A DNA stretch of 64,000 nt from a virus. The notes beneath the pieces are model-generated. The model did not search any database. It was not told the origin of the DNA and saw only the letters and a list, made by a program, of their open reading frames with translations. Position numbers and translations under genes: made by a program. How positions within the stretch are numbered: position 1 is the stretch's first letter; every line of letters begins with the position of its first letter. Below, one piece after another: positions 24,476 through 48,613 of the stretch. The stretch lies in the IMG/VR virus record IMGVR_UViG_3300045988_132703. The stretch is one strand, 5' to 3'.

Positions 24476-24505
24476 AGACTGGTAAGCATTTACCAGTCTT
24501 TTTTA
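24476..24505 (+). terminator. Rho-independent terminator
   Basis: Hairpin AGACTGGTA-AGCAT-TACCAGTCT is followed by TTTTTTAT. Confidence 0.7.
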
Positions 24506-24520
24506 TTTGAGGTGAAAGTG

Positions 24521-27500: not shown

Positions 27501-30500
27501 AAACTTATGTTAGAAACGCTATTGCTGATACAGTTTTTGCAGATCCAGAAACTTTAGTTGCAGTTCAAAATGCAGGTAAAGAAATAATGGACAATCTTGC
27601 TAATGGGATGATAAGCGATAGTGAAGCATAGATTCAAATAGGAGACCTTTTAGGCGAATATCTTACTAATCCAGAATTGCTCAATAAAATTGGAGCAACA
27701 GAAGACGATGTACAGACAATGTCCGATGCATTAATTGAGTTAGCTTTAAACGAAGGTAATGCTCGAGATAATTTAGTTAGACTAAATTCATCTGTCCAAT
27801 AGTACGGTAATATTGCTAATAATTCTCGCCAGATTATAACTTGGAATAGTGAAGCGATTCAAAAATGGGGAGATGCTTTAGCAAGTTGGCAAATGAATGC
27901 CGACGAATTTGAAGGATCAATTTCTACTGCCCTTGGAAGTTTTGATTATATTAATGAAAATGGTTTCTCTGACGCTTCTAATGGTATAGCAATTGCTTTT
28001 ACTCCAATTTTAAATACCGATGATGGTCCAAAAGTCTTATCCAATAGCGAAATGAATAATTATTTGCAATAGATATATGCTAATGCAAATGGAGATGCCA
28101 ATAAACTATTGGAAGAAGACGCAAAAGGCGTCAAAATGGTCGTCAATAATCAGCTAGTTGAAGTTAAAAATATGCTAGCGGGTGCAGAAGGAGCTATTGT
28201 TGATGGAGTAAAAGAAACGGCTGAGGACTGTGCTGGAATGTCTGGAATGGCAGCAGAAGATATTAAAGCGCAATTTGGCGAAACTGGACGCTATGCAGAA
28301 GATTCTATGCACTAGGTTCAAGAAGCTTTTATTCGTGCCTAGGAAGCTCTTTCAGAAACTAATCCTTTCCTTGCAATGGCTCTATAGCTTATTATGCAAA
28401 TGTCTGGATTAGATTTTTCCTCTTTAGATGATGGATTAAACGATGCTGCTGATGCAGCAGATAATGCAACAAATGCAGTGTCTTCTTTAAAAACTTAGAT
28501 GTCAGAAGTTAGCAATGCGGCTTCTGATTTAAAAAATGCTGCAAGTGATCTTTCAGGAGTTGCAGATGCCTATAAAACATTAACTACTGCAATTAAAGAT
28601 TATAACGCTGATGGGAATATTACTCTTTCCAATCTTGAAAGTTTGCTTTCATTATCTCCAGAGTATCTTTCTTGTTTAGAGATGGAGAACGGTCAATTAT
28701 CTCTAAATACAGAAGGATTAAAAGGCATTGTTTTAATGCGAATCCAAGCTGCAAAAGCAGCTGCCTATCAATCAGCAATGGAGTAGATTCAAGCAATTAC
28801 AATGTCATCGTCTGCTACTGCTGCGAGTACAGCTGGTGAAGCAATTGCAGGAATGGAAGCTGCAACTTCAAATGCTGCAACGGCAATGTCTACAGCATCT
28901 AATACAGCAGCAACTTCAACTGGCACGATGGCTAATTTAGCTTAGTCTGGTTATACAGTAGCCGCGGGTTTTGACACTGCCGCATCTTCAGCTGCTAATT
29001 TTAATAATGTTTTAGCTAATAAATTAACTGAAGCAGGAACTGGTATTAAATATACAGCAGAAGATGTCGCAAGCATGATTGCTGGAGATATATCTGGGAT
29101 TACTGATGTTTTAGGGGATGCTGTTGGCGATGTAGTAACTGGTTTGCAAAGCCAACTCTCGATGCTTGACAATTTAGAGAATCAAGTCAATTCAATGGAT
29201 TTTGGTTCTTTTATTGGAAAGTATGGTGGTTCAAGCAAAGGTGGTTCTGGTGGTTCTGGCACTAAAGGTGCAACGGAAGCATCTAACGAATTAAAAAATG
29301 CACTTGAAGCGCAAAAGAAAGCTCTTTAGGAACAACAAAAAGAGCTTGAAAAATCTAAATCAGCAATTGAGGAATAGAAAAAAGCTCTTGAAGATCAAAA
29401 GAAAGCTCTTGAAGAAACTAACAAACAACTTCAAGAGAACTACAAACTTTATGTCGAGTTAATCAAGTCTCGCCTTAATGACGAAATCGACCGTCAGACC
29501 ACTCGCATCGAAGCCTTTTACGATGCAATCAAAGATACCATTCAATCCGAAATTGATTCTTTCAATGACCAACTCGATGCCCTTAAAAAGCAAGCTGATG
29601 AACTCAAATCTAAAGCCGACGAACTTCAAGATGCAGCAGACCAACAAGAGGATTCTCTCAACAAACTCTATGACGCTGCCCAAGCCTACTATGATGCTGC
29701 TCAAGATGGTCTCGATAATCAAATCGACTCTTACGATAAAGTAATTGACCGCAACAAAGAGCACATCGACCTCCTTAATGAGCAAAAAGACGCTATTCAA
29801 GACCAAATTGATGCACTTGATACTGCGGCTGATAGTGAATCAAAACTTCTTGCTCTTGAAAAAGCTCGTGATGCTTTAGCTAACGCTCGCAACCAAAAAA
29901 CCCGTATGGTTCTTACCAACGGTGGTTGGCGTTTACGTACTGATAAGTCCGAGATTTCTAATGCTCAATCTAATCTTGTATCTGCTCAGCGCGATTATTA
30001 GAAAGAAATTCTTGAACGCCAACAAAAGAAAATCGAGGAACAAACTGATGAAATCGAGAAACAGAACAATAATCTTGAAAATATTAAGTCTGACCTCGAA
30101 GACCAAAAAGACGCTCTCGATGATATTAAAGATCAATGGGATAAAGCTCAAGATGCTCTTGGCAAGACCACATCTGAACTTGAAGAATAGACTAATTTAA
30201 TTCGTCAATTCCAATATGGAAACGATGCAAGTCGTCAAGATCAACTTTCAAACTTTTCTGGACAAGTTTCAAATAATAATCAATAGCAACAAGCAGCGTC
30301 TGATGCAACTAACCGTGCAAATGAAGCATCTAATAAATATGACCAATAGAGTAATGAAGATGTCCAAGGTTCTATTGCTGAAGCTATTAAAAAACTCGAA
30401 GAACAGCAAAATCAAGCCGATGAAGCCTTAAAACAATATTTCGAGAATCAACTTTCAAATAATGCTGAAACTGCTCAAATTCAGCAAGAAATGAAAGATT

Positions 30501-31483
30501 TGATTAATCAAATGGTTAATGGCTAGATTGGTCAATTAGAGAATTTTGCATAGTTCTATGAAACAATTAATGGCGCGCTTGAACAAGCTAACACCAATGC
30601 AAGTCAAACGGCAGATTATATTAATAATATAAATGCTGCGATTGATCGCTATGATGAATGGTCTAATCGTTTAGATATGACCACTGATGAAATTAATCAG
30701 CGTCAAGCGATAATGAATGAAATCAATAATGCTACTCTTGGTTCTTTACTTGAAGGCGGTTCTACTTTTGGACAACTTCAAGGACAGTATGAGCAAATTG
30801 TTAGGAATAATGATGAAGCTGAAAGAATTCAAGATCAGATTGACGGACTTGATGAACAAGCTAATGTTATTCAAACATAGATTAATGCATTAAAAGAACA
30901 AGAAAATAAAATCTCTGAGCAAGAAAAAGAGTTAAGTAACGCTAATAGCAATAAAACTGCTAACGCTGCAAAAGCTGCTGGCAATACTGCTGCTTCTGGC
31001 GCAAAAGCTGCTGGCTCTGGTATTCGAACTAACGCAGATAAAAATACCGCTAGAATTATTGATGCCATTAATAGCAAAGATATTTCTGTTACAATTTAGG
31101 AAACATCTAAGGGTTCTGGTGGCGGTTCTGGAAAGTATCTAATGGCCAGGTATAATACTGGTGGCATGTTAGGGTTTTCTCATGGAGGAGTTGATGATGT
31201 TACAACTGTTGCGGCTGTGCATGGTTCTAAAAATCGTCCCGAACTTGTCCTCAACAATTCTCAATCAGCTGCTTTGTTCAAATACATAGACAGTATGACA
31301 AGGATTCCTACTTTATCTTCAGCAGGAAGTGCTCGAAATGCTCTTATGGGCTTCGGCACAACCAATAATACAAACAACAACGGAACTAATTTCACTAATT
31401 GTGAATTTAATGTTGAGAGTAATGCTGATAACTTAGACTCCTTGGTTCAAGACTTGAAACAAAGCGCTTCAATTAGGAGATAA
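24521..31483 (+). CDS. tail tape measure protein (2320 aa, dozens of TAG as sense)
   Basis: RBS GAGGTGA. Track ORFs 25772.., 26297.., 28109.., 28499.., 29075.., 30677.. and 31142..31483 all share the frame of the ATG at 24521, and there is no TAA or TGA in that frame. The core ...LSAISAVSG...MNAFGMEGDDAASVVDVFANMAGRTATDVEELATAMARTASIAKNAGMSFEQTTAFIATMEE... is the canonical tape-measure region. The flanks are long coiled coils and hydrophobic segments. Confidence 0.85.
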
Positions 31484-31527: not shown

Positions 31528-31541
31528 ATTGAGGTGGACAA

Positions 31542-34500
31542 ATGATTAGAGAACCATATAATGTAAGTCCATATAATGAAGCTAAGGATTTAAGTCAAAA
31601 TCCTTAGTTCTCTTTTACTTTTGGCGGCGACGCGCTTGTTGGTTACGATTATAAAATTTTAGATAATAGTAATAAAAATAATATTCTAAAAGATTGGAGT
31701 TCAGTTGCTTCGACTGTTACTGGAGAAAATATAAAATATTTGCCCACTATTGATTCTGGAGCAGTTGCTATACCAACAACTCAATTAGGACAAACTGTTA
31801 CTATATATAATGATGAAGATTATTATTTTGATTGCGCAAATATATTAAATTCTGATCTTTATACTAATAAAGGTTTGGTCTGGAAATTGCGTTTATTTGA
31901 AGATAATACTACTCCATCAAATATTATTCAATCCGGTGAAATCATAAATGTTTTGTCCTTACAAGATGACGAAGCCATTGTAAAAGGAACTATTACTGGT
32001 TTACTTGAAGAATCAGACTCTTATGTTTTTAAGAATAACCCCAACTATTCTCCAACTCTTTATCCTGACCCAAATGACGAAAGCCAAAATATAGAAGGAT
32101 ATATTCCAGATAGATGGACAAGAAATGTTTTAAAAATAGGACAAAATTCTTTTCCAATTAACGATTATGAGACTCATACGGAGCAATATTATAATACTCA
32201 AAAACCAGATACTTATTTTGTAGGAACAAAAGCAATAGGTAACGGTAATTCAGAAGTTTATTATACACCTGTCAAAAATTTAAGTTACTATACTTATAAT
32301 TATTCTTATGATGCGAGTAATAAGACTTATCAATGTATTGCCTCAAGTCACGCATCTGCTTCTACTCTTGTTAGAAGTAATATTTCTGGCATTGTTGAAA
32401 ATGCAATAGTAAAAGATTCTACTGGCGCGATTGTATCTATTTCAGACAAAGTTACCGGACGAGATTTATTTAATGCAACAAATAATAATAAATCTATTTC
32501 CTATTCTCTAGGCAGCACATCTATAGTTACTGAACAAGTTACAAATAATGGAGTATAGGATATTGTAAATGCCACTTATGACATTGTTTGGGGTTCAACA
32601 GGAGAAAATAAAAAGAATAGTAATTTATATAATTTTACTGTAAAGCAAGAAATAACTTCCTATGATTCCAACGGCGCGCCAATCGTTACAGAAAACATTC
32701 TTACTGGTACTCGTTCTTTACTCGGAATGAGCAATTTACTTTATATTGACGCAAAAACGGGTAGTTATCGTAATGGTTCTTCTTATCTCACAGAAGAAGA
32801 AATTGCGGCAATTTAGGGCAAAGCATTAGCAAGTACAACTATTGATTTACTTAACAGTTCAACTTATTCTACTTTAAGTGAAGAAGATATTGATTTTAAT
32901 AAAGATAACGAAACTACAATTTATACTGTAGAATTAGAAGATGAAAAAATTCAATATAATAAAACTACTTCTACTAATGAAATACTTACTCGTGAAAAAG
33001 CGAAAAAGAAAGGAATTATTGATAAAAATGCAGCTGATATTTTAATTATTTTAAGTTCAACAGATTCTTCTGTTGATTCATCAAATACTTTTTTTACCTA
33101 TGATGAAATTTCTAATATCAAAGATTCAGATTACGGATTATATACTTTGGGACGAGGATTGTCTGATGATAAATTAAGTTTAATTAGTCCTAAAGATTCA
33201 ATTAATCAAATTGGTGAATTAACTGGTAATTAGGTTCTTTATTTTACTGTCTTAAATAATTATTATGATAGTAATTATTACTATTTTACTAATTAGAAAT
33301 AGCCAGATATAAATTTTTAGATTAATGATGTCCCATATTACTCTTTTTTAGCTTATTCTGAATAGATTGCTGCGGGTAATAAACCTACCTCTTCTGAACA
33401 CGGATTATTAAATCATTTTACTTTTTAGAAGTCAAAAACTCAGATTTTACCTTTGTCAAATTCGTCTGTTGGTTCTGAAGACAATCCGCTAGTAACCTTG
33501 CAGAGATTTTTCCCTATTGTTTCTTCTCTTGCGGGAATGCCTTATAATTTTAAATATTACAAATTTAAAATTCAAGGTGGAACAATCAATGAAAAAGGTA
33601 CGGTTATTTATAATAGTGCTCCTCTTTATGAGTCGGGAAAAATCTTCTCTCGTAGTATTTTAATTGATTATAATAATTATGTCACCGATTATGATAGATA
33701 TAGAATAGAATTAATGTTAGCTACCTCTGAAAATGGTTTCTATTATTATTATACTTATTTATATCCTACAATTGATATGTTCCAAGACGATGAAAAAGAC
33801 GACCATTTTGCTTCTGTTTCTTACGATGAAGAAAAAGGAGCGGCAAAAATTTCTTGGACTAAAGATAACGCTTATCCTCCAGCATTAAAAGGAGTAGAAA
33901 TTACTGAATATGGTACTTATATCACCAATGGTAAAAAATTCCCATTAAAAGCATATAAGATTTCAAAAGATGGGTATATAACTTACTATCATAAAGGTAG
34001 TGAAATTTTAAATATTAATCCACTTCATGATTTTCAAATTAGTTTTACTATTGATAAGGTTTTAAAAGGACTAGACAAAATAACTATCGATCCTCTTATA
34101 GCTTTTAATAACACTCAAAATGCAACTGTCATTAGTCTTTCAGTAGAAGATAATATAATTGAATTAATGGAAGATAATGTTACAATCAAATCTTCTAAAA
34201 ATACAATTATTGAAACTGTTCAATCTTTTATTGATTGGGATGATGATGATACACACAAAAATCAAATTTTCCAATATCGTCTACCAGAAGCTACAAATAA
34301 AACAGAAGATGTTTTATTACCAACCAATGGTGTTCTCGCGCCAACAGAACAAAACTTATCTAAGTACTGTTTCCACTTTTATTTATTCCCCTGGTCTACA
34401 AAAGGCTCAAATGAAGCAAAAGCTTCTTATAAAATTACTCGTTTTTATAATGTAGACAGTTGTGCGACAAATGAACTAATCATGGAATCTGAAGATGAAT

Positions 34501-35852
34501 GGCGTTTAGGTTTCTATGGCGAAGGCGCAGGTAATAATGCGGATTTAAGCAATGGCAGTAATAATTTACCATCTGGCCCAACCAAAACTAATTTTGATAC
34601 TTCAAAGTACATTTCTGTTTCTTATCTCTTAAGCGGCGGACGTCCCACTTCCCAAATGTTAAATGGTTTAAGTAAAATTAATCTCTATGGCGAAGTTCTT
34701 TATTATGGAATTTTAGATATTAACCGCCGAGGCATAATTGCAAGTGAAGATAATTTTATTTTAAATTTTAATGATAGTAATGTTGGATTTTCTTCTTTAT
34801 CGCGCGAAGTATACGGTTATAGAATTTTCCGCAATGTTTATGAAAATGACAATGTAAATAGTAGAGATATAGCTCTTGATTTTATGCGCCAAATGGATAC
34901 TGTTTATGCTTCTATCTGTGGTGCAATTACACTAGATGATTCAAACCATAGTCCTCTTGGTAAATATGAAAATATTGTCGATACCGCAACTTATGTTCAA
35001 GGCTGGGATGAAAATGGAAATGCTATCGGATATATTCGTGGAGCAGATTTAAGAGCATTAGTAAATGATAGTTTCACCGATTTAAGACAGGCGATGGATG
35101 AATATTTTGCAGGAAAAGATTTAAGTTTTAATTTTAATACTGAGCCTTTTGATGAAATTTATAGCTTACTTGACGGCATTCAAACTCCTAACATGATTGC
35201 TAATGATATGATTGCGGACATTAATATTTTTAATTATACAATATCGGAAGAAGCTGGACAATATTATATCTATGATTATAACATTCCAAGTAATGGCTAT
35301 TTTAGATATTAGATTGTTCCTTTATTAAGAGATAAAACTTATAATGTTTTAATCGCCAAAACTAACAATAATGGTGAAACCATTATTTATATAGATGATG
35401 AACAATGGCATATGACTGACATAAAGAAACGTGCTGACGGTAGTTATGCTCCCGGCGATACTTGGAATTTCCTTTTAGGAGTCCAGAGTGCGCAATATAC
35501 TCAAAACTTTACAAAAACTCTTCAAACTGGTTTTGCCCCATATCCTAAAGTCATGACCAGTATGGCTAATTACAAGACAACTCAATTTACTGGTTATTTA
35601 GGTAAATTTAGTTTTAGAAATGGTGGCTCTAACGTATATGAAGATACCATCGATCGTATTGAAAAATGGAATGAATTTGCATATGCACGCAATCAAATTT
35701 TAGTCAAAGATCCAAAAGGTCACGTTTTCATTGCCGCAATTTCTGCAACCTCTGACATTAGCGATGCAGCAATTCCAGAAATGCCAACTCAAGTTACCTG
35801 CACCTTAACTCAAGTTGGAGATATTGATTCGTTTAAGGTATATTCTCTGTGA
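31542..35852 (+). CDS. giant tail-tip/distal tail protein (1436 aa if all TAG are sense)
   Basis: RBS GAGGTGG. Track ORFs 31740..32558, 33453..35312 and 35412..35852 share one frame. There are only TAG codons between them and no SD before 35412. It stops at TGA 35850-35852. Confidence 0.55.
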
Positions 35853-40298: not shown

Positions 40299-41045
40299 TT
40301 ATCCCCATTGAAACATTTCAACAGGTTTACAGTTCCTAGTTCCATAACGCCCAATACAAATTGCATCTGCTTCATCTTCAGTAACATTTATATCGAACCA
40401 ATCTCTTACATGAACCTAAGCACTTCGTTTTTTATCAGTCCTTGTTTTACCTTTAATTCCAACATCAGCGCGCCAGGTAGACGAAGACACAACTTTAAAA
40501 TCTACGCCCTACTCGCGCAAAGAAACTTGAAGAACTCCGAGCAATTCAGCCAAAGCTTTATAAACAGTAACCCCATTTACGGCCTCGCCATTAAAAACTG
40601 ATTTTCCTTCAATTTTCTATTGATACTAAATATCTTCAAGTAAAACAATATCTGGTTTATAATTAATAATTAAATTAGTTAGCCACTAACGAATTTCAAC
40701 TAATCTATCAACAGTGTCTTTTGATTTAGCTTTAAAAACACCATACCGCAATAAAGTTTCGTCGTCCCATAATGACCAACCACTTATTTTTGTAGCCTAA
40801 TCTAGCGCGAGAATACGTCTAGCTTCCGTTTTTTGAATAGGAGACATATCCATTTTTTTCAAAGGGTTGGAATTACATATTGGACACTAAAATTTATTTC
40901 TAATTTTTTTATATGGCGCAATAACTAAATGACCTTCTGGGCATTCAAACTCCATGTCTGTTGATAAATTAATATATTCTTCGCTTCTAACTTTCCAACC
41001 TTTCTCAGCTAGATCAGAACGAATCTAATCTAGTGTTATTTTCAT
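40299..41045 (-). CDS. ruvC: RuvC-like Holliday junction resolvase with N-terminal zinc-finger region (248 aa, 8 TAG as sense)
   Basis: It does not appear as one ORF in the track because of the TAG codons. ATG at 41045 gives MKITLD(Q)IRS...CPEGH...(Q)CPICN...RILALD(Q)ATKISGWSLWDD...IVLLEDI(Q)YQ(Q)K...EDEADAICIGRYG. The D...E...D catalytic layout matches phage RuvC-type resolvases. It ends at TAA 40299-40301. Confidence 0.7.
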
Positions 41046-41050
41046 TTTAA

Positions 41051-41827
41051 TTAGCGGCCTGATGAACCAAAGCCAGCTCCTCTATCAGTGGAATATTTTT
41101 CAAACTCTTCTTCAGAAATTTCTTGAGCCTGCATTTTAGGAGTTTGTTCAAGAATCATTTGTGCAATTCTGTCACCTTTTTTAATAACATAAGGTTCAGA
41201 ACCAGTATTCCAAACAATGACTCCGACCTCATTACGATAAGTGCAATCTACTGTACCTGGCGCATTTGCAACTCTAATGCCAGTTTTTAGACTCATACCA
41301 CTACGGGGGACTACGGAAATACGATAACCACCAGGAATAATCATTTTAACTCCAGTGTGAATAATCATTGTTTCACCGGGTTCAACAACTGCATCTTCAT
41401 TAGAATAAATATCTGCACCCGCGTCACCAATAGACTGATAAGCAGGAATAATTGCATCAGGAGTAACTTTACAAAATTTAACTGGAACCTTTTGGAAATA
41501 ACCATTAGTTTCCTTAATTTCTTTAAACATGGCTTGGCAGCGAGCCATAAATGAAAGAATCATTTCCTTTTTCTTGCCGGTACCAAAAACATTTTTTCGA
41601 GCCTGATCAACCCATTCATCAAATTGCTTATCATAATGATTAAATTCTTGAGGATTATTCGCGCGAGAATCAACAAGTACGCGAACAAAATCTTCACTAT
41701 TCATAATAGTTTCAATCAAAGAATTAATTTCAGTAATATCTCTACCGTCTTCAAAAGCTTGATCGGGAATCTGGACAAAATCATCAAAAAGTTTCAAAGG
41801 ATTGTCTTGTAAAAAATTCTCATTCAT
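41051..41827 (-). CDS. dut: dUTPase with N-terminal extension (about 258 aa)
   Basis: The C-terminal half has AYQSIGDAGADIYS...VVPRSGMSLK...GTVDCTYRNEVGVIVWN...GDRIAQMILE...RGAGFGSSGR, the classic trimeric dUTPase motifs. The ATG at 41827 is preferred over the TTG at 41839. Confidence 0.85.
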   Translation of the reverse strand: MNENFLQDNPLKLFDDFVQIPDQAFEDGRDITEINSLIETIMNSEDFVRVLVDSRANNPQEFNHYDKQFDEWVDQARKNVFGTGKKKEMILSFMARCQAMFKEIKETNGYFQKVPVKFCKVTPDAIIPAYQSIGDAGADIYSNEDAVVEPGETMIIHTGVKMIIPGGYRISVVPRSGMSLKTGIRVANAPGTVDCTYRNEVGVIVWNTGSEPYVIKKGDRIAQMILEQTPKMQAQEISEEEFEKYSTDRGAGFGSSGR

Positions 41828-41981
41828 AAGAGTTTTCAATCTCCTTTAGTTCTTGTAAAATTTTTCTTACTCCTTCTCGCCACATTGGCATATCAGGAGA
41901 ATATTCTCCATTTGCAATAGAAATATTTATCTTATTTTGAAGCTGTTTTAATTCAGCTTGTAAATCTTGAATAGTTTTCAT
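41820..41981 (-). CDS. small hypothetical protein (53 aa)
   Basis: This ORF is below the track cut-off. ATG at 41981 overlaps the upstream TGA (ATGA). The protein is MKTIQDLQAELKQLQNKINISIANGEYSPDMPMWREGVRKILQELKEIENSYE. Confidence 0.4.
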   Translation of the reverse strand: MKTIQDLQAELKQLQNKINISIANGEYSPDMPMWREGVRKILQELKEIENSYE

Positions 41982-43054
41982 AATCTAGGTCTCCATTTAC
42001 CACTATCTCGAACTTGGCGAACATTTAAATTAGCCAATATATACAAATTACGGTCAGCTTGGATTGTTTGATTTATCAATTTGCATCGCTCTTTGCCAGC
42101 AATATGATAAACTTCATCCATAACTGTTTTATTAGAAGTAGGATTCAATTTATAAGTAAGAATATTTGAAAAAGCTCTCATTAAAATCTCATAAACAGTT
42201 GCTGCACCATCCCAATCATCTGGTTTTAAATCCACTTTTATAGGAATTTTTACATTGCGCGAGGCGCCATAAAAATAAATATTTAATGCAGCAATAAGAG
42301 CTTTTCGACTAGTAGGTTTCTCATTTAAAGGCACATGATAACCACAGTAGCAATTAAAACAATCTATATATTTCATTAATTTAGTAATAGGTATCCCATC
42401 ATTATGAACTAAAAATAACGCCTATCTACTATCAGTTATTGCTTTACTATTGGAAGAATAATAAACAAATAAATCTAAATCTTTTATCTAGCTGCTGTGT
42501 AAAAATAATAATTCATTTCCTCTTGAAGTAAAATAGTCAAATATTTCTTTTGCATAAGAGCTATTATAAAAATTATAATCATATAAAATGATTTTTTGAT
42601 TAGAATAATTTAGTTTAGTATAATCAATTAATAACTCATTTCCATTTGTTATTCTTAATAAAATAAAATCTTCGCTTAAAATTTTCTTAACTATCTAATT
42701 TTTAGTTCTAGTGGTAAATACATTTTCGTGAGTTTTTACAAAAGTAGAATAAAATGTCCTATCAGGAGGACTATGTTCAACTTCTTCTGGAAGTTTTACA
42801 TAATTACCAGTAAAGCCTCTACCTACCCATTGTAAATTACTTTGCAATAAAAAAGAAGAAGGAAAGTCCTTCTAAGAAAGACTTTCCCTAGAAAGATAAA
42901 GTATATCATATTTTTCACTATCTTCAAAAGATAGGACAAATTCTACTATATCTCCTCTTTTTTTATGATAATAGGACAATTTCATCAATTCAAGAGATGG
43001 ACAAAACTTCGCAGGATTTAAAAGAATATCCTAATCAAATATTCCAATATACAT
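41978..43054 (-). CDS. hypothetical protein (358 aa, 5 TAG as sense)
   Basis: ATG at 43054 overlaps the polymerase stop (TAATG). It is in frame with track ORF 41978..42376, with only TAG in between. Confidence 0.5.
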
Positions 43055-46000
43055 TAGTCTGTCCTCTCTGTTCTTAAAGTTAAATGTCCTGTTGAATAAT
43101 CAATATCTGAAATCAACGTAATTGGTTTATAGGGTGAAGTTTTATATGCTTTAGGAATTGCACTATCTCCACGACGAATACACTGAATAATAAGTTTATT
43201 TCCTCTTGTAAACCATGATTTTTCAGTAACCGTTTTTTTACCAGTTACTTCGTCTTTAATAAAAGACTGTTTATCATATTTTACAAATTGAGGTTTATAA
43301 ATTTTAACTTTTACAACTCCATACTGAGTTAATAGAGTTACAATGTTTTTCAGTTTATTTTTTTCAATTACTGTTCCTGCAATATTATGCAATTTATAAA
43401 TTGGAATTTCTTTTCCCTCTTTTGAAGTAAATATCGTTTCTGGAACTGGATCTTCTGGAAGATTAAAGAAATTATCAATTTCCCTTTCTTCAAAATCTAC
43501 TCCATCAAGTTCATGCGCACCATCATAATAACCAACGCTGTCCATTTCCCATTTAGGAATGAAACCAGAACAATATTTATTCCAAATCTCGTCAATGATT
43601 GCTTTATTTAAACTCTCTAAAACTTTAGGCTTTTTCAACCACGGACGAATTTTATCCATGTAAGCCTTATATATTTTTTCCATACGAGTTTGTTCAATCA
43701 TTGCTCCACTCTCTCCAAACTTAACTAAGTCTGGATTAAAATGTGCATTGAAAAATTCAAGAGAATAATCGTCAAGCAAATAATAAAGACCAGATTTACA
43801 ATTCTTTTTTAAGAATTTATTAAAATTATAAACTGCTGCAACATCTTGGTATTTATCTGGAATAATACCATACTTAATCAAAGTTGGCATATTAGCGAGA
43901 GTTAATTTATTTTTCGTTTCTGCAATACTTTCAATATAATTACGAAGAAGACTTTCGCGCGGGATAGAAGAAATTTTATCAAATGCTCCACATTTAATTA
44001 AATTAATAACTTGAAGTTTTGTACTTTTAACTTTCTTCAAGAAATCTTCAAAAGAATTATATGGCCGATTATCAATAATTTCATTTGCATAATCTGCACT
44101 AACTCTTGTGATACCTTTTAATCCATAAATAATTTTATGGTGCGCAACATCTGGAACAAAAGTATAATTTGAAGCATTAATGTCTGGAAGTTCAACATCG
44201 ACACCAAAATTCTTCATCTTGCCAATGGCAGAGCTAATTTTACCATATTGAACAGTTTTTGAAGATTTCTTTTTAGTATCTTCTTCATCTTCTAATTCAT
44301 CTTCAATATCATTGCCTAAAGTATAATCTTCATCTTTTGGATTATCTTCAAGACCACCACTATCAACAATTAAACAAGCCGTATCCCAATAAATTGGGTC
44401 ATAAAAATATGCCAAATTTAATTCTTGAATTGCTACTGTTGAATAAGCTATGGTATGAATAATACTAACTTGCCAAACATAATTTCTTATGCCATTTAAA
44501 ATGTTTTGGTCTGGACTATACCATCATCTTTAAGAAAAGATGTCCTTATTATAGTCTCTGAACGTCTATCTCAATTTAATATATTTTCTATAAAAAATAT
44601 ACTATTGGATATTTCGCTGCGTTTGATTATCCAATCTTAAACGATTTTACCTTACCGTTCCCATTACTGAACGCCGCAAATTAATTACTTAATTTGTTTG
44701 GTTGTTTAAGCTCTAAGGAGTTCCCCGCAATTTAAAGGATTTTCGATATACATCACTGTATAAAGTCGCTTAATTTTAACGAATAACCCATCTGCTTTTC
44801 GGCTTGAGACCAAATCCAATCAATAATGTCTTTAGAAGTTCCTAATTCTTTTCCCCGTTGATACAAATTTTCTTTTAAAGATGCAATTTCTTTAAATTTC
44901 TTTTTAGCAACAGTTTTACGGACTTTATTTGCTTCATCAACATTATAATTTGTAAATGGTAACATAACCGCGCGCATAAGAGATTCTTGGCTGTCCAATA
45001 CACCACCAAATTCCTTCATAAACTCATAAAGTTTATCTTTTTCTTCAGTAGTAGCATTAAGATTATAAATATCTCTTTTTAATTTTTCTGGATGCTCTTG
45101 GTATTCAACAAATTCCTCAACAGGAGTTTTTTGTCCTTTTTCTGGCATTAATCGCATCAAACTATTTGACTGCGCAAGAGTAAGCAAATTTTTTGGTTTA
45201 ATCTGTTTCGCTGTTTGCAATCCAACAGGAGTATCAAATTGGAACAAACTAATAATTTTATTGTCGCCAACAAGCTTCCACATTTCCGGATTATCGTAGT
45301 CAATAACATCTGGATTTAGATATTTCATATAAGTAGCTTTTAAAGAACCTTGCCACTCCATTAAACCATCATTAAGAAGTAATTCCATTGTGGTACGGAT
45401 TCTATCCAAACCATCAATAGTTAAGAACCTTTATACCCTCGGTTTCCCGATATTTATTAGGGGAGTAGACTATCTCTTCATCCTATTGCTAGGAGTCTCG
45501 CACTTCGATTTAAAGGGATTTCACCTACCAGAGTTTCACTGGCCCTACTTCTATTGACATTTATAAAGCTGTCTAAAGAATAGTCGTTACACCTTCTAGA
45601 TTAATCTAGCTTGGCACGGTATTACCATATTATTTAACTTAGGCTTTTACCGTTAGCCGCAAAGCGACACCCTTAAATAAGGTTCACGAGATTATAATAT
45701 ATTATTACTAATATATCAGACATTTGATATATTTAGAAATTTTAGCATATCTTGAGTTTTTCTTTCTAGAGTAATTTCTGAGTTAGTTGAAAGTAAATAC
45801 TAAACAATATTTTTAGTTCTAATATACTAATCATCCATAAATATATACCTTTATCGTACTTAATATGACCCGCGTACTCTTCATCATGTAATTCCCATTG
45901 GCTACATTTTACTCCTTTAGGACTCTTCATCGTCGCGCCAAGTTCTGTAAATTTATCGTTTGTTAAGATAATACCAGAAGCATGAACTCCACGGCGACTA

Positions 46001-48512
46001 ATCAATCCCTCAATGTTTTTTGCAACATTCCAAATATCTTCATGTTTGCCCATTTCTGCAATAAATTGCGGAATAGGCTGATACCCCTTTTCTTCGTCTC
46101 CGTAATAACATTGCTGTAAACTTCTAACAAAACCGCGGTCAATAGGAATTAAAGAACTAAGAAAACTTCCTAATTCTGGTTCGTATCCTAAACCACGTGC
46201 AGCAGTTTGCAATGCTGCTTTTGAAGTTTCAGTGCCAAAAGTTGCGACACTCGTTAATTCTCCGCCAATGGACTCAAAGTAACGACGAACTGCTTCAATA
46301 AATCTTTCACGCTTGGATGCCTGAGAATCAATATCGACCTTTAATTACCCTCGGTTTCCCGATATTTATTAGGGGAATAGACTATCTCTTCATCCTATTT
46401 CTAGGAGTCCTGCGCTTCGAACGGTGATTAAATCTGCTCTACTACTTAGTCGTTACACCACATCTATCCTATAATCTTTACAATGTCCATATTTTCTTAA
46501 AGAAGATATGCTACAGTCAAAATATTCTTTAGCATATTCTGCGGCAGCTTTCTTATTGTCGAAGATTTTTATAATAGAGTTAGTTGAAATTTGAACTAAT
46601 GCACATTTTATCTAATTGCGTGCTGGTCCCATTGTAGAATAAGAATCATATAAATTATATTTTCTATCACACCATTCAAGATTTTCTAATTTATTATTGC
46701 TTCTATTCTTATCTTTATGATTTACCTCTGGTAAATTATCTGGATTAGGAATAAAAGCTTCTGCAACAAGTCTGTGAACAGCGTAATGTTTTGCTATATT
46801 ATTTTCACATAAAGAAATATATTGATAACCAGCCATATTTGTCCAAGCAGACATTTCTTTAGGCTTTTTATATTTATATGAAATAACTCTTCCATCATCG
46901 GTTATCCCATAATCTTCGTGATTTTTAATTCTTTTTTCCATTAATTTTCACCTCTAATCAAGAAGTAAAAATTTATCAACTTTCCTCTAAGAAAAATAGA
47001 TACGGCACGGTATTATCTTTTCGGATTTCCACCGTTAGCCATTTTAAATGACACGCGATAATCAATCGCTTCACAGGATTTTCTATTATGATATTACTAT
47101 CATAAGCGGACTATGATATAAGTTAATCCGCGAGTTCTGCACGTCCTCTTGAACAAAATCTCCAATAAGGAAGTGCAGTTGGACTTTTCAATGGATCGCG
47201 CTGAATAATGTCCATCAAATATGCGCTTAACATTGAACCTACTGAACCACGCCAAGGACCGACTAAAGAGTCACCATCTGTCCAAGCAATATCAATAACT
47301 TTACGAACGGTGATAAAATAAGCACTTAAACGCTCTTGAATTTTTTCGGATACAATCCACATTTCTTGAAGTTCTTCTTCAAGTCTATCAAGATGAATTT
47401 TGTCTAAACAATCTAATTCAAGCCCTTTTTGAATAATACTATAAAGAAAGAATTTATCTTCTTCATATTCACTATTCAAATACTTATTTAAATATTCTCG
47501 TTCGCCAATGATTTTTTGTGGCTCACAGTGGATTAAATGCCAATCAAGAGGAATACGAGGAACAATTTGCTTATATGCCAAATCATATTCTTCAATCATT
47601 GAACAAACTTTATTACTATTTTCAAAAATTTGAGTAATAAAATCGTCATCAAAATAATTAAGTTTCTCTCGAATTTCCTCTGCACTCATCATATAAGTGT
47701 AAGCGTAGAAATCATCAGTCTCTCTATCTCCATCGCCAGAATTAAGAAAACTCTTATGAATTTCTCTATCCTCTTGACGTAAATAGTGGCTATCAGTCGT
47801 AACTGTGATATTAAAATGATTCTTTTTTGCAAACTGCGCAGCTAAAGTATTAAAAGTAACTTGTTCTTTACTCAGCCCAGGCTGAATTTCAATAAAGAAA
47901 TTTTCTTTACCAAAAATTTGTTCACACCAATGGCAAAAATTTAATGCTTTTTCATACTGTTGATTTAAAATCAAATAATCGAAAAAACTACCTAAGCAAG
48001 CTGTTTGTGCAACCACATGTCCAGAATTATTTCCGATAATTTCTTCAATGTCTGAATAATAAGTTGGAACACGTTCCATAAATTGATAAAAACTTCTATT
48101 CCAAGCTCTTGAAGATAATTCTCGAAGTTGTTTATTTCCTATTTTATCTTTTGCTAATAAAATAAAGTGCCAAAATTTATCTTCACCTTTAATAAAGTTT
48201 TTTGCACTTAAATTATCACGGCAAAGATAAATCTCATTTCCTAATACAAGTTTAAAATTTTTAACTTGATTAGCCCATTTATCATTTGGTTCTGTCTCTA
48301 AAATCTTTTTCGCCTTTGATTTTAAAGATTTCATGTATTTTAAAGCTTTGATATAACCGGAAACACTCTCGTGGTCAGTGATTGCTACACCCGTTAAACC
48401 CAATTCCAAAGCATAATCAATTAATTTATCTTCTTTGATAATACAATCGAGCATACGAATGTTAGACCCACTAAGAATAATGGGTATGATTATGTCCACT
48501 AAAATATCCCAT
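43054..48512 (-). CDS. dnaE: DNA polymerase III alpha subunit (DnaE-type, PHP N-terminus), 4 exons / 3 group I introns plus a frame change near the start
   Basis: Exons on the minus strand are 47126..48499 (or from ATG 48512 with a 10-nt gap), 45853..46338, 44779..45427 and 43054..44492, summing to 3948 nt in frame from 48499. Motifs include HNHTHYS / NIRMLDC...AITDHESVSG (PHP), ...RFCSRGRAELAD|VDIDSQ..., HIKYD|FLTIDGL and ...HTIAYSTVAIQELNLAYFY. Confidence 0.8.
44493..44778 (-). mobile_element. group I intron pol-a (family II)
   Basis: The minus strand has AAATTGCGGGGAACTCCTTAGAGC, GCGGCGTTCAGTAATGGGAACGGTAAGG, CAAACGCAGCGAAAT, GTTCAGAGACTATAA and GGTATAGTCCAGACC, ending ...TTTTAAATG. P1 is UCGU/GCGA. 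Boundaries are good to within a few nt. Confidence 0.7.
45428..45852 (-). mobile_element. group I intron pol-e (family IV, ORF-less)
   Basis: The minus strand has GCGGCTAACGGTAAAAGCC, GGTAATACCGTGCCAAGC, GTAACGACTA, AGATAGTCTACTCCCC and CGGGAAACCGAGGGTATAAAGG. Splicing joins ...KYD to FLTIDGLDRI. Confidence 0.75.
46339..47125 (-). mobile_element. group I intron pol-f (family IV) carrying an HNH endonuclease gene
   Basis: P1 is GCGGAT|TAACTT...GTCCGC with a U.G. Core blocks are GGCTAACGGTGGAAATCC, AATACCGTGCC, GTAACGACTA, AGATAGTCTATTCCCC and CGGGAAACCGAGGGTAATTAAAG. Confidence 0.8.
46453..46941 (-). CDS. intron-encoded HNH homing endonuclease (162 aa, 1 TAG)
   Basis: RBS GAGGTGAAAA. Track ORF 46612..46941 (…HRLVAEAFIPNPDNLPEVNHKDKNRSNNKLENLEWC...) continues through a TAG to TAA 46453-46455. 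Confidence 0.75.
48464..48473 (-). other. 10-nt coding gap (candidate translational bypass or +1 frameshift site) in the polymerase gene
   Basis: The minus strand reads ...CAT ACC CAT TAT TCT TAG TGG G TCT AAC ATT CGT ATG CTC GAT. The take-off UCU is followed by TAG. An identical UCU 10 nt downstream is in the frame that continues as NIRMLDC... Confidence 0.45.
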
Positions 48513-48584
48513 TATTTCTTAGAATCACCTCTCTTTCTAATGCTTTCAATAAAGTAATTTGATATTATTTCCATTTCTATAAAT

Positions 48585-48613
48585 ATTATATCACATTTTT
48601 GCGCAGAAATCAA
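48585..48613 (-). promoter_or_regulatory. middle-class promoter (TTGATT-17-TATAAT-ATTTATAGAA)
   Basis: The plus strand shows ATTATA 48585-48590 and AATCAA 48608-48613, with the conserved TTCTATAAATATTATA block. Confidence 0.6.

What the first reader, a model, noticed from the sequence alone, without database searches (positions are those of the whole stretch)
48462..48512. Candidate translational bypass (or +1 shift) at TCT-TAG...TCT at the start of the PolIII alpha gene
The SD-preceded ATG at 48512 opens a frame encoding MGYFSGHNHTHYS, which contains the HxH...YS signature of PHP motif I. That frame then hits TAG and, two codons later, TAA. The rest of the polymerase (NIRMLDCIIKEDKLIDYALELGLTGVAITDHES...) is in the +1 frame. 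The sequence is UCU UAG UGG G UCU AAC. It has identical Ser codons 10 nt apart, a stop codon right after the first, and the second in the continuing frame. This is the take-off codon / stop / matched landing codon layout of T4 gene 60 hopping, on a much shorter gap. Skipping the 10 nt gives ...HTHYS-NIRMLDC..., a very good PHP N-terminus. Because the stalling codon is TAG, efficient amber suppression would instead produce a 16-residue dead-end peptide ending at the TAA. Polymerase synthesis could therefore be coupled inversely to the recoding state. That last point is speculation.
Basis: partly seen in the sequence, partly recalled or inferred. Interest (0 to 1): 0.8.

Follow-up and report, generated by a model that had tools for sequence, protein, structure and literature searches.

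The report
Ribosome hop in phage polymerase gene
The start of this phage's replicative DNA polymerase gene is broken by a stop codon and 10 extra bases that ribosomes most likely skip, and comparison with hundreds of related phages shows this is one case of a widespread, apparently undescribed family of such short skips, each paired with an RNA hairpin.

Summary
On the minus strand, ATG 48512 opens MGYFSGHNHTHYS, followed by TAG. The polymerase continues in the +1 frame, and identical TCT codons lie 10 nt apart.

Uninterrupted homologs read HNHTHYSNIRMLDC, exactly the sequence produced by skipping the 10 nt. TCT-TAG-N4-TCT is conserved in lineages down to 59% protein identity. Two strains that are 97-99% identical lack the insert.

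Among about 260 related loci I found about 23 junction variants within the same 15 codons, with gaps of 4-12 nt. In every one a stop codon follows the take-off codon. In 19 of 23 the triplet before the resume codon matches the take-off codon in its first two bases. Gap lengths fall in all three classes mod 3, so one frameshift mechanism cannot explain them; a hop can.

The leader codons are under protein-level selection.

New here: interrupted alleles carry a hairpin pairing the start-codon region with the take-off region (mean -20.5 vs -12.9 kcal/mol, p about 1e-12).

The phage is TAG-recoded in its late genes.

Most likely this is programmed short-gap translational bypassing. Nothing has been tested experimentally.

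The parts
48585..48613 (-). Promoter-like site: TTGATT, 17-nt spacer, TATAAT with an upstream TG. It lies directly upstream of the polymerase leader.
   Evidence: 10 of 12 consensus matches. The site is conserved in the strain alignment.
48525..48533 (-). Shine-Dalgarno sequence GAGAGGTGA, 12 nt upstream of the ATG.
   Evidence: Read from the sequence. GGTGA is invariant in all interrupted and uninterrupted alleles.
48508..48522 (-). 5' arm of the hairpin, CUAAG-A-AAUAAUGGG. It contains the AUG start codon.
   Evidence: Folds. Pair counts. The 7 nt CTAAGAA are absent from uninterrupted alleles L002 and L006.
48474..48512 (-). Leader coding segment of 13 codons, MGYFSGHNHTHYS. It carries the HxH and the T-x-Y-S of PHP motif I.
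   Evidence: It matches the N-termini of continuous homologs. Synonymous versus nonsynonymous differences favour frame 0.
48471..48484 (-). 3' arm of the hairpin, CCCAUUAUU-CUUAG. It spans the Thr, His and Tyr codons, the take-off Ser codon and the UAG.
   Evidence: The synonymous sites of ACC CAT TAT TCT are nearly invariant in interrupted lineages (one TAC, compensated, in L350) but variable in uninterrupted ones.
48474..48476 (-). Take-off codon TCT (Ser13).
   Evidence: Conserved in all type-A relatives.
48471..48473 (-). TAG stop codon in the A site at take-off.
   Evidence: A stop codon directly follows the take-off codon in all of the roughly 23 junction variants.
48464..48473 (-). Coding gap of 10 nt, TAGTGGGTCT, which is not decoded. 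The landing codon is its last three bases.
   Evidence: Absent from alleles L002 and L006, which are 97-99% identical at protein level, and from continuous homologs.
48464..48466 (-). Landing codon TCT. It is TCC in L010, L012 and L065.
   Evidence: It is the first UCN triplet met when scanning 3' from the take-off codon.
48462..48464 (-). Second frame-0 stop, TAA. It would end any amber read-through product at 16 residues.
   Evidence: It is not essential: it is lost in relatives whose landing codon is TCC.
47126..48463 (-). Remainder of exon 1, from the resume codon AAC. It reads NIRMLDC...AELAD and holds the PHP domain and the first part of the pol3 alpha domain.
46339..47125 (-). Intervening sequence 1, containing an HNH endonuclease ORF at 46612-46947. 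It is absent from intron-less relatives such as P0001.
   Evidence: for the junction and for HNH_3. Rfam did not detect it as a group I intron.
45769..46338 (-). Exon 2 region, matching DNA_pol3_alpha profile positions 104-257. Its 3' end was not mapped to the nucleotide.
45446..45736 (-). Intervening sequence 2, a group I intron core below the Rfam gathering score.
   Evidence: 38.2 bits, E = 3e-7.
44756..45430 (-). Exon 3 region holding the finger domain. Boundaries are approximate.
44496..44788 (-). Intervening sequence 3, a group I intron core below the Rfam gathering score.
   Evidence: 42.9 bits, E = 1e-8.
43054..44523 (-). Exon 4 region holding HHH_6 and the C-terminal part. The 5' boundary is approximate.

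Best explanation
This is programmed translational bypassing, a short ribosome hop.

Proposed mechanism:
1. Ribosomes start at AUG 48512 and translate 13 codons, MGYFSGHNHTHYS.
2. With peptidyl-tRNA(Ser) on UCU (48476-48474) and UAG in the A site, a fraction of ribosomes neither terminate nor decode UAG.
3. The peptidyl-tRNA unpairs, the mRNA slides 10 nt, and the tRNA re-pairs with the next UCU (48466-48464).
4. Decoding resumes at AAC. The product is ...HNHTHYS-NIRMLDC..., a complete PHP motif I fused to the rest of Pol III alpha.

What is shown:
- the sequence layout;
- the identity of the skip product to continuous homologs;
- conservation of the layout while the gap varies in length and sequence;
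- protein-level selection on the leader;
- the specific association of a hairpin with interrupted alleles.

What is inferred:
- that the hop occurs at all, and with what efficiency;
- that the hairpin drives or rectifies the forward slide. The idea is that the 5' arm (SD-proximal spacer, AUG and GG) re-forms with the 3' arm (Thr-His-Tyr-Ser codons and UAG) behind the ribosome, as proposed for mRNA pairing at the ribosome exit in T4 gene 60;
- that the hairpin also sequesters the AUG and keeps initiation low.

The likely purpose is to gate or throttle polymerase synthesis through competition among termination, the hop and, in this TAG-recoded phage, suppression at the stop codon. A selfish or protective origin for the inserts is not excluded.
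For: (1) Continuous homologs read M[SG]YF[SN]xHNHTHYSNIRMLDC, which is the exact 10-nt-skip product.

(2) Two strains at 97-99% protein identity (L002, L006) lack the 10 nt. Seven others carry it.

(3) TCT-TAG-gap-TCT/TCC is kept in lineages at 59-83% identity. The gap itself varies: TGGG, CGAA, TGTG, CG, TG.

(4) About 23 junction variants occur at four or more codon positions of the same motif in about 260 loci. All have a stop right after the take-off codon. In 19 of 23 the landing triplet has the same first two bases as the take-off codon (binomial p <= 3e-15; 11 of 13 conservative groups, p <= 2e-9). The exceptions are near-cognate: AAY to AGC and CAU to AAU.

(5) Gaps are 4, 5, 6, 7, 8, 10, 11 and 12 nt, covering all classes mod 3. 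Within the homologous TCT-TAG/TAA group they are 6, 7, 8, 10 and 11 nt. One mechanism, a hop, fits all of them. Frameshifting would need +1, -1 and read-through variants without slippery sites.

(6) Synonymous to nonsynonymous differences in leader codons are 48:32, 39:8, 25:0 and 15:4 in frame 0. In shifted frames almost all differences are nonsynonymous.

(7) The other seven PHP metal-ligand positions are invariant in the family (D3, H28, E74, H96, C153, D221, H223), so the leader's HxH is needed to complete the site.

(8) The Pfam PHP model scores the skip product at 87.9 bits, the +1 product at 85.0 and the GTG-start product at 80.1.

(9) The gene is otherwise intact across its three introns.

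(10) Hairpin: mean MFE is -20.5 kcal/mol for interrupted versus -12.9 for uninterrupted 5' regions (32 vs 149 sequences, p = 7e-13). The median number of pairs between the start window and the take-off window is 15 versus 6 (p = 7e-10). At least 12 different stem sequences are seen. There is one compensatory AU-to-GC change and three changes to G-U within type A.

(11) Precedents exist. Hopping from a stop-stalled ribosome to a matching codon is known in E. coli (PMC6815119). Bypass of 10-nt inserts is reported for the phiHau3 terminase (PMC10732093).
Against: - No protein, ribosome-profiling or reporter data exist. All relatives are uncultivated, and no GenBank phage isolate carries an interruption.
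- Unprogrammed hops over stop codons are inefficient in E. coli, roughly 1% or less (from my own knowledge).
- No take-off stem-loop can form inside a 10-nt gap, and there is no gene-60-like nascent peptide.
- For this particular site a +1 shift would add only Ser-Gly-Ser and costs only 2.9 bits against the PHP model.
- Four junction variants land on imperfect matches.
- Matched triplets could in principle be relics of an insertion mechanism that duplicates 3 bp.
- Within-type covariation of the hairpin is weak because few distinct sequences are available.
- The interrupted sequences are phylogenetically related, so the p-values overstate independence.
- The geometry by which the hairpin would act is conjecture.
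Confidence: 0.7

Rival explanations
1. A +1 ribosomal frameshift occurs at UCU-UAG. The ribosome stalls at the amber codon, the reading frame moves one base, and AGU GGG UCU are decoded. The product is ...HYS-SGS-NIRMLDC, with three extra residues inside PHP motif I.
For: The +1 frame through the gap is open. A stop in the A site is a classic +1 stimulator. Two relatives (L351, L373) carry a true prfB-type CUU UGA C site in the same motif. The PHP model penalises the SGS insertion by only 2.9 bits.
Against: tRNA(Ser) cannot re-pair well on CUU, and no SD-like stimulator lies 3 nt upstream. The would-be inserted residues vary non-conservatively among relatives (SGS, SES, SVS). Homologous TCT-TAG inserts of 6, 8 and 11 nt, and a TCT-TAA insert of 7 nt, cannot all be rescued by a +1 shift. 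No continuous homolog has extra residues at this position. The conserved matching landing codon has no role in this model.
Confidence: 0.12
2. There is no recoding. The 13-codon ORF is a regulatory leader that terminates at TAG. The polymerase is made separately from GTG 48499 or ATG 48454 (MLDC) by independent initiation or by termination-reinitiation, and it lacks the HxH of PHP motif I.
For: Gene callers annotate exactly these starts (P0001-P0026). The hairpin that sequesters the AUG resembles a translational-control element. An ATG lies 17 nt after the TAG.
Against: The leader encodes the family's motif I and is under protein-level selection in every interrupted lineage. All other PHP metal ligands are invariant, which implies an active site that needs HxH. 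No SD precedes GTG 48499, and that frame evolves non-synonymously. In the YPGSLHNH clade the position of the MLDC methionine is Leu encoded by CTN or TTR, often not a start codon. In several variants the gap splits H|NH itself.
Confidence: 0.1
3. The 10 nt are removed or corrected before translation by RNA-level excision or editing, or by transcriptional realignment between the 3-nt repeats.
For: The insert is flanked by direct TCT repeats and sits at the base of a strong hairpin that could be a processing signal.
Against: No known bacterial or phage mechanism excises 4-12 nt from mRNA. There are no homopolymer runs for transcriptional slippage. The invariable stop codon right after the take-off codon has no role in such a model.
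Confidence: 0.04
4. The site is a sequencing or assembly artefact, or a decaying pseudogene.
For: The data are all metagenomic, and no raw reads were inspected.
Against: An identical insert is found in many independent assemblies and pipelines. It is conserved across lineages with 59% protein identity whose downstream ORFs are intact and carry all domains. Co-varying features are also present: the stop, the matching codon and the hairpin.
Confidence: 0.02

Closest known systems
Phage T4 gene 60 translational bypass (50-nt coding gap)
   Same: Matched take-off and landing codons. UAG lies immediately 3' of the take-off codon. A single polypeptide comes from two ORFs in a phage DNA-metabolism gene. 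Upstream mRNA pairing is proposed to favour forward movement. Insert-free alleles exist in relatives. The host gene is invaded by homing-endonuclease elements.
   Different: The gap is 10 nt, not 50. There is no stem-loop formed by gap nucleotides, no gene-60-type nascent-peptide signal and no MobA cassette. The event occurs at codon 13 with a very short nascent chain. The hairpin here pairs the start-codon region with the take-off region. The inserts are polyphyletic and sit at several codon positions.
Streptomyces phage phiHau3 terminase, two 10-nt inserts proposed and partly shown to be bypassed (PMC10732093)
   Same: Short inserts (10 nt; 7 nt in a prophage) that are absent from homologs. 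They would add residues to a conserved junction if frameshifted. Flanking RNA structures bring the landing codon close. A regulatory rationale links the event to the availability of a decoding factor.
   Different: The trigger there is the rare sense codon UUA (bldA tRNA); here it is a stop codon. The gene is a terminase, not a polymerase. The site is internal, not N-terminal. Only three genes are known, against many lineages and about 23 junction variants here.
prfB (RF2) +1 programmed frameshift, CUU UGA C
   Same: Stop-codon-dependent recoding whose efficiency depends on release-factor activity. Relatives L351 and L373 use exactly CUU UGA C within the same polymerase motif.
   Different: The window site has no slippery CUU U and no upstream SD-like stimulator at 3 nt. 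The displacement is 10 nt to a non-overlapping codon.
Low-level 'stop-hopping' in E. coli (Weiss et al. 1987; Herr et al. 2004, both from my own knowledge; PMC6815119)
   Same: A peptidyl-tRNA on a ribosome stalled at a stop codon slides to a nearby codon that matches its anticodon. Near-cognate landing can suffice.
   Different: Those events are unprogrammed, rare, and occur in artificial or over-expressed contexts. Here the layout is conserved, selected, and accompanied by a dedicated hairpin.
Magnusiomyces capitatus mitochondrial 'byp' elements
   Same: Many independent short non-coding inserts in essential genes are bypassed by matched-codon hopping (cited).
   Different: Those are eukaryotic mitochondrial, 27-55 nt long, and are mobile GC-rich elements scattered through many genes. 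They have no N-terminal clustering and no start-codon hairpin.

Membership tests
Programmed translational bypassing (T4 gene 60 paradigm) | Take-off and landing codons are cognate for the same peptidyl-tRNA | tested here: met
   The take-off is UCU (48476-48474) and the landing is UCU (48466-48464), or UCC in L010, L012 and L065. The first two bases match in 19 of 23 related junction variants.
Programmed translational bypassing (T4 gene 60 paradigm) | A stop or slow-to-decode codon lies immediately 3' of the take-off codon | tested here: met
   UAG is at 48473-48471. A stop follows the take-off codon in every interrupted relative.
Programmed translational bypassing (T4 gene 60 paradigm) | Removing the gap restores the sequence of uninterrupted homologs, with no extra residues | tested here: met
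   HNHTHYS|NIRMLDC equals the sequence in P0032, P0038, P0052, P0081, P0084, L002 and L006.
Programmed translational bypassing (T4 gene 60 paradigm) | A take-off stem-loop formed by the take-off codon and gap nucleotides | tested here: not met
   The gap is only 10 nt. A local ACCCAUUA/UAGUGGGU hairpin is predicted in the window. It cannot form in L174 (gap CGAA) or L178 (gap CG), so it is not conserved.
Programmed translational bypassing (T4 gene 60 paradigm) | Upstream mRNA structure or pairing at the ribosome exit that promotes forward movement (5' stem-loop) | tested here: inconclusive
   A strong hairpin specific to interrupted alleles pairs the start region with the take-off region. Whether it promotes bypass is inferred, not tested.
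Programmed translational bypassing (T4 gene 60 paradigm) | A nascent-peptide signal in the exit tunnel | not testable with these tools
   The nascent chain is only 13 residues and is the conserved PHP motif I. It has no similarity to the gene 60 signal.
Programmed translational bypassing (T4 gene 60 paradigm) | An SD-like sequence in the gap 5' of the landing site | tested here: inconclusive
   Many gaps are G-rich (UAGUGGG, UAGGGU, UAGGGAG, UGAGG) but others are not (UAGCG, UAACU, UAGUUUAUU).
Programmed translational bypassing (T4 gene 60 paradigm) | A trans-gap polypeptide demonstrated experimentally | not testable with these tools
   There are no cultured relatives carrying the insert and no proteomic data.
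prfB-type +1 programmed frameshift | A slippery P-site codon that allows +1 re-pairing (CUU U), plus an SD-like element about 3 nt upstream | tested here: not met
   The window has UAU UCU UAG U with no upstream SD-like element. Only distant relatives L351 and L373 have CUU UGA C.
Bacterial/phage DNA polymerase III alpha (DnaE/YorL-like) with PHP domain | PHP, pol3 alpha, finger and HhH domains in order, with conserved PHP metal ligands | tested here: met
   Pfam hits run across the four exons with contiguous profile coordinates. The PHP match starts at profile position 3 only when the leader is joined. Ligand columns are invariant.
Stop-codon (TAG) recoded phage | Many in-frame TAGs in long late-gene ORFs, with early genes free of them | tested here: met
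   ORF coverage rises from 66% to 89% when TAG is read as sense. A 2335-codon ORF has 40 in-frame TAGs. The replication ORFs from 43 to 63 kb have none, or at most one that probably lies upstream of the true start.
Stop-codon (TAG) recoded phage | A phage-encoded suppressor tRNA | tested here: not met
   ARAGORN finds no tRNA gene in the 64-kb window. The rest of the roughly 175-180 kb genome was not examined.

The most novel reading that the evidence does not exclude
Many uncultivated Firmicutes-associated gut and rumen phages make their replicative polymerase only through a programmed ribosome hop of 4-12 nt (in two lineages a prfB-like +1 shift) placed in the first 8-18 codons. The hop is triggered by a stop codon and assisted by a hairpin that pairs the start-codon region with the take-off site. 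This would be a polyphyletic, previously undescribed class of natural translational bypass. It would work as a release-factor or decoding-state sensor. In TAG-recoded phages such as this one, it would switch polymerase synthesis off once amber suppression sets in.
Probability: 0.45. Interest if true: 0.9.

Novelty: new variant of a known kind. Interest (0 to 1): 0.85.

Why it matters
Natural programmed bypassing is known from very few systems: T4 gene 60 and its homologs, yeast mitochondrial byps, and the candidate phiHau3 terminase. If these polymerase sites are real, they add dozens of independent natural examples.

- **A natural mutational series.** The gaps are short, vary in length, use all three stop codons, and include both cognate and near-cognate landings. 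This lets the rules of take-off, sliding and landing be tested directly.
- **A testable stimulator.** The sites point to a simple element, a hairpin joining the start region to the take-off codon.
- **Annotation.** Gene callers currently truncate these polymerases and drop two active-site histidines.
- **Phage biology.** Replicative polymerase output appears to be deliberately gated at a stop codon. Close uninterrupted relatives seem to use non-AUG start codons instead. In TAG-recoded phages this links replication to the state of the code switch.

Tried and rejected
- **GenBank phages.** Near and distant DNA searches and tblastn returned only relatives at 43% identity or less, all continuous at the N-terminus. 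No cultured phage carries an interruption, so no annotation or experimental data can be borrowed.
- **14-mer scan.** Only 4 of the fetched loci were true sites, so the scan was of little use.
- **Local take-off hairpin.** ACCCAUUA/UAGUGGGU is predicted in the window but was rejected as a general element because relatives with other gap sequences cannot form it.
- **Link to TAG recoding.** Interrupted and uninterrupted loci in the YPGSLHNH clade show TAG recoding at about the same rate. My hand count from the coverage columns is roughly 8 of 21 versus 23 of 59. Recoding is therefore not the general cause.
- **Within-type covariation.** The test of the hairpin gave 93.6% of cells paired and one compensatory change, but shuffles reach that score in 76 of 500 trials. 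The support for the hairpin comes from cross-type comparison.
- **Long 5' leader.** The roughly 40-nt leader segment present in the window and absent in L002 is not needed, because L013 carries the insert without it.
- **A quadruplet-decoding suppressor** reading UAGU would fit the 10-nt gaps but not the 5-, 8- or 11-nt gaps.
- **Literature.** Five full-text searches found no description of bypass or frameshift in phage Pol III alpha or PHP genes. The library covers open-access papers only.


Full report
**Observation**

The gene lies on the minus strand.
- A GAGAGGTGA Shine-Dalgarno sequence (48533-48525) precedes ATG 48512-48510.
- The ATG opens MGYFSGHNHTHYS, ending with TCT (48476-48474). 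TAG (48473-48471), TGG, GTC and TAA (48464-48462) follow.
- The long polymerase ORF is in the +1 frame, open from GTG 48499.
- A second TCT (48466-48464) sits 10 nt after the first, directly before AAC ATT CGT ATG CTC GAT TGT, which encodes NIRMLDC.
- A promoter-like TTGATT-17-TGnTATAAT lies just upstream at 48613-48585.

The bare motif (codon, stop, N4, same codon) occurs 206 times in the window. The case therefore rests on context and comparison, not on the motif.

**The gene is otherwise intact**

The polymerase is split by three intervening sequences.
- Exon 1 ends at 47126 and exon 2 starts at 46338. This was fixed by comparison with intron-less relatives. The 787-nt insert carries an HNH endonuclease ORF.
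- Two further inserts give sub-threshold group I intron hits at 45446-45736 and 44496-44788.
- The four exon pieces carry PHP, pol3-alpha (profile positions 19-103, then 104-257), finger and HhH domains in the correct order.

This is a working gene, not a pseudogene.

**Homologs**

A protein search found 2588 relatives. Their N-termini fall into two groups.
- Continuous genes read M[SG]YF[SN]xHNHTHYSNIRMLDC, for example P0032, P0038, P0052, P0081 and P0084. This is exactly what skipping the 10 nt produces.
- The other group consists of calls that begin MDIIIPIILSGSNIRMLDC or MLDC. These are gene-caller readings of the interrupted form.

The DNA of 13 close viral contigs confirms this.
- Seven strains at about 99% protein identity carry the same insert.
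- Four contigs from a lineage at 59% identity also carry it. Two of them (L010 and L012) have landing codon TCC, which also removes the second TAA.
- Two strains at 97-99% identity (L002, L006) lack the 10 nt and read CAT TAT AGT AAT.

More lineages came from contig look-ups:
- L298 (83% identity) and L175 (73%) have TCT TAG TGGG TCT.
- L174 (62%) has TCT TAG CGAA TCT.
- L178 (58%) has TCT TAG CG TCT.

The two Ser codons and the stop are kept while the gap changes in sequence and in length. The would-be +1 peptide changes non-conservatively (SGS, SES, SVS).

**A family-wide phenomenon**

I scanned IMG/VR with two protein alignments and GTDB genomes with one. This gave about 260 loci (181 distinct 5' regions in the analysis). 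Roughly one in five to one in six has an interruption within the 15 codons that encode (Y/F)xxxHNH[TS]x[YF]SN[IL]R.

There are about 23 junction variants at four or more codon positions. The number in brackets is the hop distance in nt, measured from the first base of the take-off codon to the first base of the landing codon. This equals the number of undecoded bases.

| Take-off residue | Junctions (take-off, stop, spacer, landing) |
|---|---|
| Ser | TCT TAG TGGG/TGTG/CGAA TCT (10); TCT TAG CG/TG TCT (8); TCT TAG CG TCA (8); TCT TAG CGAAA TCT (11); TCT TAG TCA (6); TCT TAA C TCT (7) |
| Thr | ACG/ACT TA ACT (5); ACT TGA A ACC (7) |
| Asn | AAT TA AAC (5); AAC TAG GGTTG AAC (11); AAC TAG GGTG AAC (10) or AGC (10); AAT TAG GG AGC (8); AAT T AGC (4); AAC TGA GG AAC (8) |
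| His | CAT TAG TG/TT CAA (8); CAT TAG TTNATT CAT (12); CAT TG AAT (5) |

Three regularities hold across these variants.
- A stop codon directly follows the last codon that matches the family consensus in every case.
- Deleting the gap restores the consensus with no extra residues in every case.
- In 19 of 23 the triplet before the resume codon shares its first two bases with the take-off codon (12 are identical). The binomial p is at most 3e-15. With a conservative 13 independent groups it is at most 2e-9. The exceptions are near-cognate: tRNA-Asn on AGC and tRNA-His on AAU.

Gap lengths fall in all three classes mod 3, even within the clearly homologous TCT-TAG/TAA group (6, 7, 8, 10, 11). 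Frameshifting would need +1, -1 and read-through versions without slippery sites. A peptidyl-tRNA hop to the next matching triplet explains all of them. The landing codon is the first cognate triplet met when scanning 3' from take-off.

Two further lineages (L351, L373) have CTT TGA C at the Leu-Leu-Asp of the same motif. This is the prfB +1 site. It suggests that stop-codon-gated recoding early in this gene is itself under selection.

**The leader is translated and needed**

Pairwise codon differences in the leader segments give these synonymous to nonsynonymous counts in frame 0: 48:32, 39:8, 25:0 and 15:4 for four junction groups. In the shifted frames almost all differences are nonsynonymous.

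The other PHP metal-ligand columns are invariant across the family. The leader's HxH therefore completes an apparently active site.

Pfam's PHP model scores the three possible N-termini as follows:
- skip product, 87.9 bits, with the match starting at profile position 3;
- +1 product, 85.0 bits;
- GTG-start protein, 80.1 bits, with the match starting at profile position 7.

**A hairpin specific to interrupted alleles**

In the window, CUAAG-A-AAUAAUGGG (48522-48508, containing the AUG) pairs with CCCAUUAUU-CUUAG (48484-48471). The second arm covers the Thr, His and Tyr codons, the take-off Ser codon and the UAG. The stem has 14 base pairs.

Evidence within the type-A lineages:
- The stem is kept. 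Changes are A to G giving G-U in three sequences, CUAAG to UUGAG giving two G-U pairs, and one compensatory A-U to G-C in L350. Overall 93.6% of cells are paired, against 36-69% for slid controls.
- ACC CAT TAT TCT is almost invariant at synonymous sites in interrupted lineages. The single exception is TAC in L350, which is the compensated pair.
- Uninterrupted relatives vary at those sites: ACA, ACG, ACT; CAC; TAC; AGT, AGC.

Other junction variants build the same architecture from different sequences. Examples are AUGAAGACU/AGUCUUCAU, AUGAAAACUAC/GUAGUUUaCAU, AUGAAUAAUCG/CGAUUAUUC and UGAAUAGUCG/CGACUAUUC. There are at least 12 distinct stems. The AUG usually pairs with a CAU His codon or with the take-off codon itself. 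The SD-proximal spacer often pairs with the gap and the landing codon.

Quantitatively:
- 100-nt 5' regions fold to a mean of -20.5 kcal/mol in interrupted alleles and -12.9 in uninterrupted ones (32 vs 149 distinct sequences; Mann-Whitney p = 7e-13).
- The median number of pairs between the start-codon window and the take-off window is 15 versus 6 (p = 7e-10).
- The two prfB-like loci lack the hairpin.

These sequences are phylogenetically related, so the p-values are optimistic. The multiplicity of unrelated stems is the stronger argument.

**Mechanism**

The following is inference.
1. After initiation the ribosome melts the hairpin.
2. When UCU is in the P site and UAG in the A site, the 5' arm is 31-46 nt behind and free. 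The CCC of the 3' arm is at the mouth of the mRNA exit.
3. Re-zipping of the helix through the E-site and P-site codons would favour unpairing of the peptidyl-tRNA and forward sliding of the mRNA. It would stop once the helix is complete, about 10-11 nt later.
4. The tRNA re-pairs at the first cognate triplet.

This parallels the proposal that pairing of mRNA as it exits the ribosome drives forward bypassing in T4 gene 60. The 5' stem-loop of gene 60 is itself poorly conserved. The hairpin must also lower initiation by sequestering the AUG.

Hopping from stop-stalled ribosomes to a matching codon is documented at low level in E. coli. Bypass of 10-nt inserts has mass-spectrometric support for the phiHau3 terminase.

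**Relation to TAG recoding**

The window comes from a TAG-recoded phage.
- Stop-to-stop ORF coverage rises from 66% to 89% when TAG is read as sense.
- Plus-strand late genes are full of in-frame TAGs, for example 40 in the ORF at 24476-31483.
- The minus-strand replication ORFs from 43 to 63 kb have none, or at most one in the stop-to-stop ORF, probably upstream of the true start.
- No tRNA gene is present in the window.

The TAG at the take-off site is therefore the only amber codon a ribosome meets in this gene. Suppression would yield the 16-residue dead-end peptide.

It is not the general reason for the inserts. In the YPGSLHNH clade my count is about 8 of 21 interrupted loci and about 23 of 59 uninterrupted loci with TAG recoding. 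TAA and TGA are also used as the gating stop.

**What it is for**

This remains open. Three ideas fit the data.
- **Throttling or sensing.** Expression would depend on the competition between termination and the hop. This is supported by the prfB-like variants. It is also supported by the closest uninterrupted alleles, which appear to start at ACG, AUA or CUG behind a good SD.
- **Protection of a conserved DNA target from homing endonucleases.** This has been argued for T4 gene 60 and MobA. It is suggestive here because the gene is riddled with introns and endonuclease genes, but it was not tested.
- **Origin by templated mutation in a quasi-palindrome.**

**Novelty**

Five full-text searches found no description of bypass or frameshifting in phage Pol III alpha or PHP genes. 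The closest known systems are T4 gene 60, the phiHau3 terminase, prfB and the mitochondrial byps.

I classify this as a new variant of a known kind. It has short, stop-gated, N-terminal hops with a start-to-take-off hairpin, and it is polyphyletic across many uncultivated phages. Their relatives sit in Firmicutes-type MAG bins.

**Verdict**

My estimates are:

| Explanation | Probability |
|---|---|
| Bypass | about 0.7 |
| +1 frameshift | about 0.12 |
| Separate initiation with a regulatory leader | about 0.1 |
| RNA-level removal | about 0.04 |
| Artefact or pseudogene | about 0.02 |

Nothing has been shown at the protein level.

Noticed in passing
window 7800-41100, mainly the + strand (e.g. 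24476-31483, 31533-35852): Late or structural genes contain many in-frame TAG codons: 40 in a 2335-codon ORF and 10 in a 1439-codon ORF. ORF coverage rises from 66% to 89% if TAG is read as sense. No tRNA gene is present in the window. The phage uses a TAG-reassigned code for its late genes.
   Followed up: partly
window 40299-41084 and 41978-43099, minus strand: Two ORFs directly downstream of the polymerase, on the same strand as the TAG-free replication genes, carry 9 and 5 in-frame TAGs. The boundary between standard-code and recoded genes therefore lies right after the polymerase gene and does not coincide with the strand switch.
   Followed up: no
L002 and L006 (near position 1440-1500), L177 (about 330-400), L299 (about 330-400): The closest uninterrupted alleles have no ATG at the position of the window's start codon. 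They have ACG (L002, L006), ATA (L177) or CTG (L299), each 4-5 nt after a good GGTGAT or GAGTGAT SD. In L177 and L299 in-frame stops leave no canonical start upstream of the motif. Polymerase translation seems to be handicapped either by a near-cognate start or by ATG plus hairpin plus hop.
   Followed up: partly
L351 (about 1480-1510) and L373 (about 1480-1510): Two distant relatives in Lachnospiraceae and Clostridium MAG bins have CTT TGA C, the exact prfB/RF2 +1 frameshift heptamer, at the Leu-Leu-Asp of the same PHP motif. They lack the hairpin.
   Followed up: partly
window 43054-47125, minus strand: The polymerase gene carries three intervening sequences. One has an HNH endonuclease ORF (46612-46947). 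Two are group I intron cores below the Rfam gathering score. Relatives differ in which introns they carry; some have GIY-YIG or HNH genes after exon 1.
   Followed up: partly
window 11185-13747, + strand: Four group I introns above the Rfam gathering score (73-98 bits) are clustered within 2.6 kb in a late, TAG-recoded gene region.
   Followed up: no
window 48531-48566, minus strand (5' UTR): A leader segment of about 40 nt (UAAUAUCAAAUUACUUUAUUGAAAGCAUUAGAAAGAGA) is present in most strains and enlarged in L001. It is absent in L002, L006 and L013. Its presence is independent of the 10-nt insert, and its function is unknown.
   Followed up: partly
L109, L135, L148 (near position 9950-10000) and L153: In-frame variants occur: CAT TAG TTN ATT CAT (12 nt) and TCT TAG TCA (6 nt). 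L109, L135 and L148 show no sign of TAG recoding; L153 was not resolved. In L148 the codon after TAG is TTG, so termination followed by reinitiation giving (M)IHNH... is an alternative to a hop for this variant.
   Followed up: no
L305 (MAG bin labelled Methanobrevibacter; near position 1440-1500): A TCT TAG TGTG TCT insert, almost identical to the window's, sits in a polymerase of the distant YPGSLHNH clade (about 42% identity). This suggests either convergence or lateral transfer of the insert-bearing 5' segment.
   Followed up: no
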